A stretch of 64,000 nt of DNA, taken from assembly GCF_003018235.1 (NCBI RefSeq), contig NZ_CP027438.1; one strand, written 5' to 3'. The translations under genes were made by a program, and so were the position numbers. Within the stretch, counting starts at the first letter, position 1. Each line of letters starts with the position of its first letter. This document shows positions 47,773 to 48,561 of the stretch, one piece after another. The notes under the pieces were generated by a model that saw only the letters and a program-made list of their open reading frames with translations, did not search any database and was not told the DNA's origin. Source of the DNA: Escherichia coli. GTDB lineage: Bacteria > Pseudomonadota > Gammaproteobacteria > Enterobacterales > Enterobacteriaceae.

Positions 47773-48561
47773 CCTGCTTTCTCCTCTCTCTGGTTTTCAG
47801 CCCCCATCATCTGTTGAGTTTCGGGAGCCGCGGTTTTGACGTTTTGCGGGGACCTGCCTTTTGTTCCCTCCGGTATTCACCATCACCTTTTTGAGAACCT
47901 TCGCCGCAAGGGGCATCACTGCCACGGCCGGAAACGACTGTCCGGGGGCAGACCGCAAAAGTTTTTGCCTGCTTTTGGGCAAAAAGTTTTGCGGGATGTA
48001 CATTTCACCCCTGGACTGGCGGAGACGGTTGTGGCTGTATCAGCCCCCGGCGACAGGGGCTTAAACAGGTGAATGACACCGGACACAACAACGGACAGGG
48101 ACCCGCCGCAACGACGTGAAGCGCGGTTTGCGAAACGGCGTTGCCCCTTACATCCCGGCGGCCTTTTGCCGGGATGCCAGGAGCGCAGGCCACGGCGCGA
48201 CAGAGGCGGCGCGACCGGAACGGTCGCTGCAAGCCAGGGTTTCGCGTCAGGGATGGAAGCCCGCCAGGGCGGAGACAGCTTCGCTGGCTCCGTTCACGAC
48301 AGCCCGCCCCGCCAGGGGGACGCCCGGAAAAGCCATAAACAGGAGAGGAACGGAAAGAAGAGGAAGAGGAAAAAGAAGAAGAACAATAACAAGCACGGTA
48401 ACCACAGAAAAATAACATCAGAAAAAAACATTCCGGGCACATCACAAACAGGAAGGGTAACGGGCGACGCGTCAGCGTGGCCCGCTTCCCTTCCGGCAGG
48501 CGTCAGCCTGCCAGGGGTTTTCGCGCGGGCTGACAGGCGGCCTCCACCGCCTGCCCCTGTA

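What the first reader, a model, noticed from the sequence alone, without database searches (positions are those of the whole stretch)
47800..48560. GC-rich, highly structured non-coding stretch in the leading region
About 750 bp between leading-region genes contains long inverted repeats (for example CCGCAAAAGTTTTTGCC...GGCAAAAAGTTTTGCGG), a purine-rich tract (GGAGAGGAACGGAAAGAAGAGGAAGAGGAAAAAGAAGAAGAAC) and only compositionally implausible ORFs. F-like leading regions carry single-strand promoter or initiation hairpins, so this may be such an element or a decayed gene segment.
Basis: partly seen in the sequence, partly recalled or inferred. Interest (0 to 1): 0.3.

Follow-up and report, generated by a model that had tools for sequence, protein, structure and literature searches.

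The report
Known F-plasmid single-strand promoter (Frpo/ssiD)
This GC-rich non-coding stretch is a copy of Frpo/ssiD, the well-studied hairpin in F-type plasmids that acts as a promoter only while the DNA is single-stranded during conjugation, so the feature is real but already known.

Summary
Window 47773-48561 is a 789-bp intergenic gap with 60% GC against 43% for the window. It carries the quoted inverted repeat, the purine tract and no credible gene.

Its core, 47801-48150 on the + strand, is 95.7% identical to F plasmid ssiD. That element is Frpo, also called Frpo1, ssp1 or the class 1 single-stranded-DNA promoter. The oriT nick site lies on the + strand at 45649|45650, so the + strand is the transferred strand and the leading genes use it as template.

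The core folds into one ~320-nt imperfect hairpin (-95.6 kcal/mol, z -10.4), 15 kcal/mol more stable than its complement. Nine homologues support the pairing through compensatory changes.

The copy is a chimera. It is Frpo1-type up to 48094 and Frpo2-type from 48100. It sits where F carries ~5.4 kb (ssb, yfjA/B, psiB, psiA, hok) between two copies. At least 86 plasmid records share this collapsed layout.

The remaining ~410 bp consists of small conserved hairpins, an unstructured A/G tract and three GC hairpins after the upstream gene. Its role is unknown.

I could not place the -35/-10 boxes. Verdict: already known, low interest.

The parts
45635..45660 (+). oriT nick region, TTTGCGTAGTGTGT|GGTGCTTTTGG, with the nick between 45649 and 45650. 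It defines the + strand as the transferred (T) strand, entering the recipient 5'->3' towards higher coordinates.
   Evidence: The assignment of this motif as the F/R100-type nic sequence rests on my own knowledge of F-like oriT.
47485..47772 (-). ygeA-like gene (95 aa), the first gene downstream of the promoter. It is transcribed using the T strand as template.
   Evidence: 96.8% amino-acid identity to the F 95-aa CDS just downstream of Frpo1. Couturier 2023 (PMC9849209) places Frpo1 upstream of ygeA and ygeB.
47773..47800 (-). 5' UTR and Shine-Dalgarno region of ygeA (mRNA sense ...CCAGAGAGAGGAGAAAGCAGG-AUG).
   Evidence: 100% identical to the F Frpo1/ygeA flank but only 48% identical to the F Frpo2/ssb flank.
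47801..48151 (+). Class 1 ssDNA promoter, homologous to F ssiD / Frpo1 / ssp1a. One long imperfect hairpin pairs 47818-47973 with 47974-48136. It has an A/T-rich apical stem (47953-47969 with 47978-47994) and an 8-nt loop.
   Evidence: 95.7% identity to D90178. -95.6 kcal/mol, z -10.4, against -80.4 for the complement. Pairing map. Covariation.
48094..48100 (.). Apparent crossover point of the chimera. Diagnostic sites are Frpo1-type up to 48094 and Frpo2-type from 48100. A short Frpo2-like patch also lies at 48039-48051.
48146..48205 (+). Two small hairpins just 3' of the big hairpin on the T strand: CATCCCGGC...GCCGGGATG, then GCGC...GCGC. A hairpin at the same place but with different sequence occurs in ColIb-P9, insect-metagenome and Salmonella elements.
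   Evidence: Fold at -17 kcal/mol, z -3.6. Comparison by eye with the sequences.
48200..48340 (+). Extended part of the repeat shared by both F copies (F Frpo1 versus Frpo2 are 92% identical here). It is moderately structured and folds better as the + strand. Function unknown.
   Evidence: Fold -36.7 (z -2.6) for + against -30.2 (z -0.5) for -.
48341..48440 (+). Unstructured purine-rich tract (79% A+G, only 6 T) with an imperfect AAG/AGAGGA micro-repeat. F has 18 nt more here. As - strand RNA it is U/C-rich and G-poor.
48441..48561 (.). Three near-perfect GC-rich hairpins directly after the stop codon of the 63-aa ORF. They are equally stable on both strands.
   Evidence: -40.9 (z -6.1) and -40.1 (z -5.1) kcal/mol. 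98% identical to the F sequence upstream of Frpo2.
48562..48753 (-). 63-aa ORF, the last gene of the upstream klcA-DUF1380 operon. In F this gene lies upstream of Frpo2/ssb.
   Evidence: 98.4% identity to the F 63-aa CDS.

Best explanation
The core of the region (47801-48151, + strand) is a class 1 single-stranded-DNA promoter of the F-plasmid leading region. It is the element known as ssiD, Frpo, Frpo1 or ssp1.

Proposed sequence of events. During conjugation the + strand is cut at the oriT nick (45649|45650) and enters the recipient 5' end first. About 2.15 kb later, this 351-nt segment snaps into a ~320-nt imperfect hairpin. The hairpin mimics duplex promoter DNA. Host sigma-70 RNA polymerase then starts transcription on the still single-stranded plasmid, helped by SSB. 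It reads the T strand towards lower coordinates into ygeA (47772-47485) and ygeB. The nascent RNA-DNA hybrid can also prime complementary-strand synthesis. Once the second strand is made, the hairpin is ironed out and the promoter goes silent.

What is shown here: the identity with ssiD, the strand and orientation, the hairpin and its conservation.

What is taken from the literature on F and ColIb-P9 and inferred for this copy: the RNA polymerase, SSB and priming steps.

This copy is a Frpo1/Frpo2 chimera. Where F has two copies flanking ssb-yfjA-yfjB-psiB-psiA-hok, this plasmid has one copy and none of those genes within the window. Homologous recombination between the two repeats best explains this.

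The other ~410 bp (48152-48561) belongs to the same conserved non-coding block but has no demonstrated function.
For: Sequence identity. [quoted passage not shown] It aligns with window 47801-48150 on the + strand at 95.7% over 352 columns.

Synteny. Window 45000-48346 matches the F segment from within traM (the window's own traM ends at 45327) through oriT, geneX, ygeB and ygeA to Frpo1 at 96%. Window 47793-50064 matches F from Frpo2 through the 63-aa ORF and DUF1380 to klcA at 95%.

Strand and orientation. The nick motif lies on the + strand at 45649|45650. The traJ leader and FinP lie to the left. All leading-region genes are on the - strand.

Folding. The + strand gives -95.6 kcal/mol, z -10.4. 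The complement gives -80.4, z -5.0. All nine class 1 homologues fold 8-17 kcal/mol better as the T strand.

Covariation. On the nine-sequence alignment, 83.6% of cells are paired against 42-49% when the partners are slid by 1-3 columns. There are 29 pairs with changes on both sides against 10-17 for the slid controls. None of 500 shuffles reaches the observed values. Several G-T pairs are conserved.

Scan. The criterion of Wen 2025 (300-nt window, below -75 kcal/mol) picks out exactly this site.

Published function of the family. In vitro promoter and primer activity (Masai & Arai 1997, as summarised). [quoted passage not shown] RNA-seq and 5' RACE support (PMC12672017). In vivo priming (bioRxiv 10.64898/2026.01.09.698686).

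Chimera and deletion..
Against: I could not locate a convincing -35/-10 pair. The consensus scan finds no sigma-70 promoter on either strand. A relaxed scan of nine homologues gives no candidate conserved in both sequence and spacing. The published box positions exist only in figures I could not read.

No expression data exist for this plasmid.

The gene after ygeA, ygeB (DUF932), carries a 1-bp deletion here. Part of the operon served by the promoter may therefore be defunct, unless this is a sequencing error.

The direction of the rearrangement is not proven. It could be a deletion from a two-copy ancestor, or an ancestral single copy into which the ssb-psi module was later inserted.
Confidence: 0.9

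Rival explanations
1. The stretch is a decayed gene segment, for example a remnant of the plasmid ssb gene that sits next to this element in F.
For: Several RefSeq records label the 68-aa ORF at 47797-48003 (- strand) as 'single-stranded DNA-binding protein'. The ssb gene is missing here. Long ORFs exist on both strands.
Against: The 68-aa ORF has no BLASTP alignment to F SSB even at E <= 100. The six longest ORFs that lie mostly inside the gap hit no Pfam or NCBIfam family. The flank next to ygeA is 100% Frpo1-type and contains no ssb sequence. The whole gap aligns with non-coding DNA of F. The ORF translations are low-complexity products of the purine tract and GC hairpins.
Confidence: 0.02
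2. The structure acts at the RNA level rather than as folded DNA. It would be a structured 5' UTR, attenuator or small RNA of the - strand transcript.
For: Any transcript that crosses the region would also fold. RNA folding predicts that the ygeA ribosome-binding site is paired (P = 0.92) in a read-through transcript that includes the CU tract, but free (P = 0.17) in a transcript that starts at the hairpin.
Against: The fold is 8-17 kcal/mol better on the + (DNA, T) strand in all nine homologues, and conserved G-T pairs become C-A mismatches in the - strand RNA. There is no Rfam match in the region beyond one chance-level hit. Published experiments show the element works as ssDNA.
Confidence: 0.05
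3. The element matters here mainly as a dispersed repeat. It would be a recombination site that shuffles or deletes leading-region modules, with promoter activity secondary or lost in this copy.
For: The copy is a Frpo1/Frpo2 chimera, with ~5.4 kb missing relative to F. The same collapsed layout occurs in at least 86 PLSDB records. There are about three copies per plasmid and up to nine. A chimeric Frpo repeat marking a missing 9.7-kb leading block was described in pO111-CRL115 (PMC3817090). Couturier 2023 predicted this kind of recombination.
Against: Being a recombination substrate does not exclude being a promoter. The hairpin here is intact and, if anything, more stable than either F copy (-95.6 against -91.7 and -86.0). 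It sits in the correct position and orientation upstream of an intact ygeA.
Confidence: 0.05
4. The distal part (48341-48561) is a transcription insulator. The three GC hairpins and the U/C-rich, G-poor RNA tract would terminate the upstream klcA operon, intrinsically and/or through Rho, so that the Frpo-controlled genes are not read through from upstream. This concerns only the part outside ssiD and is compatible with the main explanation.
For: The three hairpins start right after the stop codon and are equally stable on both strands (z -6 and -5). The next 100 nt of RNA are unstructured, with 54 U, 25 C, 15 G and 22 YC dimers. Leading genes are reported silent in vegetative donor cells.
Against: The terminator scan finds no canonical intrinsic terminator there. 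The U-run after the last hairpin is weak (UGUUUGUGAU). The C/G ratio of 2.0 is only at the 95th percentile of the window. F Frpo1 has a different sequence at this position.
Confidence: 0.25

Closest known systems
F plasmid Frpo (ssiD, Frpo1, ssp1a; Masai & Arai 1997; GenBank D90178)
   Same: 95.7% identity over the full 351 nt. Same strand (T strand), same position upstream of ygeA-ygeB about 2 kb from the nick, and the same long hairpin.
   Different: The last ~50 nt of the 3' arm and everything beyond carry Frpo2-type alleles. The upstream neighbour is the 63-aa ORF rather than the hok/flm-psiA block.
F plasmid Frpo2 (ssp1b), upstream of ssb
   Same: The 48100-48561 part, including the extended module, purine tract and GC hairpins, is 98% identical apart from an 18-nt length difference in the purine repeat.
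   Different: The apical half of the hairpin is only 74% identical to Frpo2. The genes Frpo2 drives in F (ssb, yfjA, yfjB, psiB, psiA) are absent from the window.
ColIb-P9 ssi1-3 / pESBL class 1 ssDNA promoters (IncI1)
   Same: Homologous hairpin with compensatory base changes, the same A/T-rich apical stem and the same T-strand bias in stability.
   Different: Much lower sequence identity: mean column identity across the nine-sequence alignment is 65%. They have a shorter basal stem and drive other genes (ssb, psiB, ardA region).
Chimeric Frpo repeat R1pO111 of pO111-CRL115 (Venturini 2013, PMC3817090)
   Same: A single repeat made of parts of two Frpo repeats, sitting exactly where a multi-kb leading-region block (ssb, psiB, psiA, ardA) is missing.
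   Different: That case is an IncI-type leading region with 9.7 kb missing and no leading genes left. Here the backbone is IncF-like, about 5.4 kb is missing, and ygeA, klcA and others are retained.
Class 2 ssDNA promoter (ssp2 / 'Frpo3') upstream of klcA/ardB
   Same: The same kind of device, a T-strand hairpin promoter. It is present 1.5 kb further along in this window at 49674-50009.
   Different: No sequence similarity to class 1. Its -35/-10-like TTGCAT...TAAGAT on the 3' arm is easy to see, unlike in class 1. It is reported to act also as a replication roadblock.

Membership tests
Class 1 ssDNA promoter (Frpo / ssiD / ssi1-3 / ssp1) | Sequence homology to a characterised member (F ssiD) | tested here: met
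   95.7% identity over 352 columns to D90178, full length, + strand. 95-99% identity to the Frpo1 copy of NC_002483 across the hairpin segments.
Class 1 ssDNA promoter (Frpo / ssiD / ssi1-3 / ssp1) | Lies in the leading region on the transferred strand, upstream of genes whose template is the T strand | tested here: met
   Nick motif on the + strand at 45649|45650, 2.15 kb before the element. The downstream ygeA and all leading genes are on the - strand. Synteny with F.
Class 1 ssDNA promoter (Frpo / ssiD / ssi1-3 / ssp1) | Single strand folds into a long, very stable stem-loop (Wen 2025 criterion: below -75 kcal/mol per 300 nt) | tested here: met
   -95.6 kcal/mol for 351 nt, z -10.4. 300-nt windows reach -85.6.
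Class 1 ssDNA promoter (Frpo / ssiD / ssi1-3 / ssp1) | The structure is conserved and specific to the T strand | tested here: met
   83.6% paired against 42-49% for slid controls. 29 doubly-changed pairs against 10-17. T strand 8-17 kcal/mol more stable than the complement in 9 of 9 homologues. Caveat: the tested structure was derived from the window sequence, and there are only nine sequences.
Class 1 ssDNA promoter (Frpo / ssiD / ssi1-3 / ssp1) | The stem reconstitutes sigma-70 -35 and -10 boxes | tested here: inconclusive
   No consensus match in the scan. Relaxed candidates are TTGACG-17-TTTTGT and TTGAGA-17-CATCAC on the 5' arm, and TTGCGG-17-TGGACT on the 3' arm; none is convincing or uniformly conserved. 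The F Frpo2 fragment that worked in Samuel 2024 corresponds only to window ~47773-48061. The basal TTGACG therefore lacked its pairing partner there, and the promoter should lie in the apical two-thirds. Published box positions were not readable.
Class 1 ssDNA promoter (Frpo / ssiD / ssi1-3 / ssp1) | Transcription by host RNA polymerase from ssDNA only, stimulated by SSB; the transcript also primes complementary-strand synthesis | not testable with these tools
   Known for F and ColIb-P9 from the literature. Inferred here from 95.7% identity.
Protein-coding gene / ssb remnant | Homology of an ORF product to a protein family or to SSB | tested here: not met
   No Pfam or NCBIfam hit for the six longest ORFs that lie mostly inside the gap. 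The 68-aa ORF has no alignment to F SSB.
Curated RNA families (Rfam 15) | Covariance-model match | tested here: not met
   The only hit within 47800-48560 is a chance-level CrcZ hit on the purine tract (17.8 bits against a 95-bit threshold, E = 0.42).
Primosome-type ssi signals (PriA n'-type or G4 primase-type) | Recognition hairpins for PriA or DnaG | not tested
   No model was available. I considered this for the small conserved hairpins at 48146-48205 only as a possibility.

The most novel reading that the evidence does not exclude
The ~410 bp next to ssiD (48152-48561) may not be a spacer. It may be an insulator that makes the downstream genes depend strictly on the ssDNA promoter. Three GC hairpins and a U/C-rich tract would stop transcripts coming from the klcA operon. 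CUCC-containing sequences (the CU tract, and the conserved UGUCUCC of the extended module) would pair across the base of the big hairpin with the ribosome-binding site of the first gene. Any read-through RNA would then be untranslatable, while RNA started inside the hairpin would be translated.

A related point: the natural occurrence of the collapsed single-copy layout in at least 86 plasmids shows that loss of ssb-psiB-psiA-hok through Frpo-Frpo recombination is tolerated, despite the proposed hok/flm safeguard.
Probability: 0.12. Interest if true: 0.4.

Novelty: already known. Interest (0 to 1): 0.15.

Why it matters
Single-stranded-DNA promoters let a conjugative plasmid express anti-defence and establishment genes within seconds of entering a new cell. 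They are currently an active topic (Couturier 2023; Samuel 2024; Wen 2025; Fraikin 2026). This window adds no new kind of element.

It is a clean natural example of two points raised in that literature. First, the dispersed Frpo copies are substrates for homologous recombination that can delete the ssb-psiB-psiA-hok block. Second, such collapsed leading regions persist in the wild, in at least 86 PLSDB records.

It also shows that the conserved repeat unit (~545 bp) is longer than the 328-351 nt usually called Frpo. Deletion studies should take this into account.

Tried and rejected
Locating the -35/-10 boxes. The consensus scan and a weighted scan across nine homologues gave no conserved, well-spaced pair. 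I tried to read Masai & Arai 1997, Nasim 2004 and Bikard 2010, but they are not held. Couturier's Fig. S6 legend gives no positions, and the Samuel preprint gives none either. I also considered an unpaired 9-nt bulge (TACATTTCA, 47999-48007) as a pre-melted -10 (TACATT). I rejected it because the key second base varies (A, G, T or C) among homologues, including F Frpo1.

ssb remnant. Rejected.

Rfam. Nothing.

Rho-utilisation reading of the CU tract. The C/G ratio is only at the 95th percentile, so support is weak.

Anti-Shine-Dalgarno pairing. It is predicted thermodynamically, but any CUCC motif would pair with any GGAG. Covariation cannot test it, so I kept it only as a speculative reading.

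More distant homologues from PLSDB. The search saturates at 5000 records, all at 80% identity or more. I therefore used the diverged sequences published in Samuel 2024 instead.

Full report
**Setting**

The window is an F-like conjugative plasmid. The traJ leader and FinP lie at 44745-44853, and traM at 44944-45327 on the - strand. The oriT nick motif TTTGCGTAGTGTGT|GGTGCTTTTGG is on the + strand, with the nick at 45649|45650. Calling this the F/R100-type nic sequence rests on my own knowledge.

The + strand is therefore the transferred (T) strand, and it enters the recipient 5'->3' towards higher coordinates. Every leading-region gene to the right is on the - strand, so it uses the T strand as template. 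These genes include ygeB/DUF932, ygeA, a 63-aa ORF, DUF1380 and klcA/ardB.

**Observation**

The finding covers the 789-bp gap 47773-48561. This gap lies between the start of a 95-aa ORF (ygeA-like, 96.8% identical to F's) and the stop of a 63-aa ORF (98.4% identical to F's).

- The quoted inverted repeat is at 47953-47969 and 47978-47994.
- The purine tract is at 48342-48384.
- GC is 60.4% against 42.6% for the window.
- The six longest ORFs that lie mostly inside the gap hit no Pfam or NCBIfam family.

**Identity**

Samuel et al. 2024 (PMC11541004, Supplementary Table 2) list five 'known Frpo/ssi sequences'. One of them, F ssiD (D90178), aligns with window 47801-48150 on the + strand at 95.7% identity over its full length.

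Against F itself (NC_002483), the window aligns in two overlapping blocks:

- 45000-48346 matches the F segment from within traM (the window's own traM ends at 45327) through oriT, geneX, ygeB and ygeA to Frpo1.
- 47793-50064 matches F from Frpo2 through the 63-aa ORF and DUF1380 to klcA.

The element is what the literature calls ssiD, Frpo or Frpo1 (Masai & Arai 1997; Couturier 2023, PMC9849209). It is also the 'class 1' ssDNA promoter of Wen 2025 (PMC12672017) and ssp1 of Fraikin 2026 (bioRxiv 10.64898/2026.01.09.698686).

**Structure**

As single-stranded DNA, the + strand of 47801-48151 folds into one long imperfect hairpin.

- The + strand gives -95.6 kcal/mol against -59.2 +/- 3.5 for shuffles (z -10.4).
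- The complement reaches only -80.4 (z -5.0).
- The difference comes from G-T pairs, which become C-A mismatches on the other strand.
- The same bias of 8-17 kcal/mol holds in all nine class 1 elements tested: the window, F Frpo1 and Frpo2, ColIb-P9 Frpo1-3, one Serratia sequence and two insect-metagenome sequences.

I projected the window's fold onto the nine-sequence alignment:

- 83.6% of cells pair, against 42-49% when the partners are slid by 1-3 columns.
- 29 pairs show changes on both sides, against 10-17 for the slid controls.
- None of 500 shuffles reaches the observed values.
- Caveats: the tested structure was derived from one of the aligned sequences, and the set is small.

A 300-nt sliding DNA fold over 45-57 kb follows the screening method of Wen 2025. 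It finds only three sites at or below -70 kcal/mol, against a median of -39. This site is the strongest.

**Mechanism**

Shown here: identity with ssiD, T-strand location, orientation towards ygeA, and a conserved strand-specific hairpin.

Taken from published work on F and ColIb-P9, and inferred for this copy:

- The folded single strand mimics duplex promoter DNA and recruits sigma-70 RNA polymerase in the presence of SSB.
- The transcript expresses the downstream leading genes before the complementary strand exists.
- It can also persist as an RNA-DNA hybrid that primes complementary-strand synthesis.
- Conversion to duplex DNA switches the promoter off.

I could not place the -35 and -10 boxes. 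The consensus scan finds none. Relaxed candidates are not conserved in sequence and spacing across homologues. The published positions exist only in figures or papers that were not readable.

One constraint can be derived. The F Frpo2 fragment that drove acrIIA4 in Samuel 2024 corresponds to window ~47773-48061 only. That construct lacks the basal part of the 3' arm, so the promoter should lie in the apical two-thirds. The conspicuous basal TTGACG (47836-47841) is therefore unlikely to be the -35.

**Chimera and missing block**

F has two class 1 copies about 5 kb apart. Frpo1 lies before ygeA and Frpo2 before ssb. The window has one copy.

Of 69 sites in the shared ~550 bp where the two F copies differ:

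- The window carries the Frpo1 allele at nearly all sites up to 48094.
- It carries the Frpo2 allele at nearly all sites from 48100 onward.
- The ygeA-side flank is 100% Frpo1-type.
- The distal 220 bp is 98% Frpo2-type, apart from an 18-nt length difference in the purine repeat.

No ssb, yfjA (DUF905), yfjB (ParB-like) or psiB, and no close hok homologue (only a 39%-identical Hok-like match at ~33.0 kb), is found anywhere in the 64-kb window (psiA was not queried separately, but its F segment has no DNA match).

The simplest reading is homologous recombination between the two repeats, with loss of the intervening ~5.4 kb. Couturier et al. discussed exactly this event and suggested that the hok/flm module protects against it. 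The reverse history, an ancestral single copy that later acquired the module, cannot be excluded.

A 1701-bp probe spanning ygeB/ygeA, the element, the 63-aa ORF and part of the DUF1380 gene is contiguous in 86 of the 5000 best-scoring PLSDB records. The layout is therefore uncommon but established. An analogous chimeric Frpo repeat marking a missing 9.7-kb block was described in pO111-CRL115 (PMC3817090).

**The rest of the gap (48152-48561)**

- 48146-48205 holds two small hairpins. A hairpin at the same position but with a different sequence occurs in ColIb-P9, insect-metagenome and Salmonella elements. It probably belongs to the functional unit.
- 48200-48340 is shared by both F copies (92% identical between them) and folds better as the + strand. 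The conserved repeat unit is thus ~545 bp, longer than the 328-351 nt usually called Frpo.
- 48341-48440 is the purine tract. It is 79% A+G, unstructured on both strands, and an imperfect AAG/AGAGGA micro-repeat with length variation relative to F.
- 48441-48561 holds three near-perfect GC hairpins directly after the 63-aa ORF stop. They are equally stable on both strands (z about -6 and -5).

My preferred but weakly supported reading is that these last two parts end the upstream klcA operon. The evidence is thin: there is no canonical intrinsic terminator, and the RNA's C/G ratio is only at the 95th percentile.

RNA folding predicts that the ygeA ribosome-binding site is paired (P = 0.92) with the CU tract in a read-through transcript. 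It is predicted free (P = 0.17) in a transcript confined to the hairpin region. This is suggestive, but covariation cannot test it.

**Rivals**

- A decayed gene or ssb remnant is rejected.
- An RNA-level element is disfavoured by the strand bias and the absence of any Rfam match.
- A role as a recombination repeat is real but not exclusive of promoter function.

**Verdict**

The feature is a member of a well-characterised family and is already known. Interest is low. The chimera and the unexplained ~410 bp are modest add-ons.

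Noticed in passing
window 49674-50009 (hairpin arms 49681-49712 and 49888-49919): A second ssDNA-promoter hairpin lies upstream of klcA/ardB. It is 81.8% identical to Samuel's Frpo' 4 and corresponds to class 2 / ssp2 / 'Frpo3'. The + strand folds at -75 kcal/mol (z -4.9). TTGCAT...TAAGAT sits on the 3' arm.
   Followed up: partly
window 51069-51233: A third hairpin lies upstream of the 323-aa ORF (50112-51083). It shares the class 2 motif CTTGCAT...GCCCGG(C/T)TAA(G/C)(A/G)T, here TTGCAT and TAACGT. It is weaker (-48 kcal/mol, z -2.6) and shows no strand bias. It may be an unreported class-2-like promoter. One preprint reported finding none upstream of the next gene cluster in F.
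   Followed up: partly
window 46245-46433: A homologue of F ssiE (D90180), 97.4% identical, lies on the + strand between geneX and ygeB. It is another known single-strand initiation signal.
   Followed up: partly
window 47278/47279: A 1-bp deletion (CCTTCGG becomes CCTTGG in gene sense) relative to F and to plasmid NZ_CP010136 frameshifts ygeB (DUF932). This is the second gene served by the promoter. It is either a pseudogene or a sequencing error.
   Followed up: partly
window 50060/50061: A second breakpoint relative to F. About 2.5 kb of F (DNA methylase, a DUF1380 gene and a 258-aa gene) is absent, so klcA's promoter region abuts the 323-aa ORF. I did not check whether repeats flank this junction in F.
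   Followed up: no
window 47797-48003 (- strand); L001 6018-6224: RefSeq annotates this 68-aa ORF, which lies entirely inside the Frpo hairpin, as 'single-stranded DNA-binding protein' (for example WP_073514796.1) in many plasmids. It has no similarity to F SSB and no family hit, so this is probably a propagated annotation artefact.
   Followed up: yes
window 46495-46550: A perfect 27-nt inverted repeat separated by 2 nt (ATGATAATATAAGTAAAGCCCCGAAAA / TTTTCGGGGCTTTACTTATATTATCAT) lies at the 3' end of ygeB. It looks like a bidirectional terminator and attracts several chance-level Rfam hits.
   Followed up: no
window 53217-54750 and 55904-56012: Families of short direct and inverted repeats (TGCAGCAAGATT-type and AGGGYRRTYTGTCACAG-type) resemble iterons or partition sites. 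The second group lies roughly 1 kb from a 276-bp, 87%-identical match to F repE (54992-55267).
   Followed up: no
window 47773-47792 versus 48342-48367 and 48270-48290: The complement of the ygeA Shine-Dalgarno region is predicted to pair, across the base of the big hairpin, with the purine tract or with the conserved GGGCGGAGACA motif. This holds both in ssDNA and, as SD with CUCC, in read-through RNA.
   Followed up: partly
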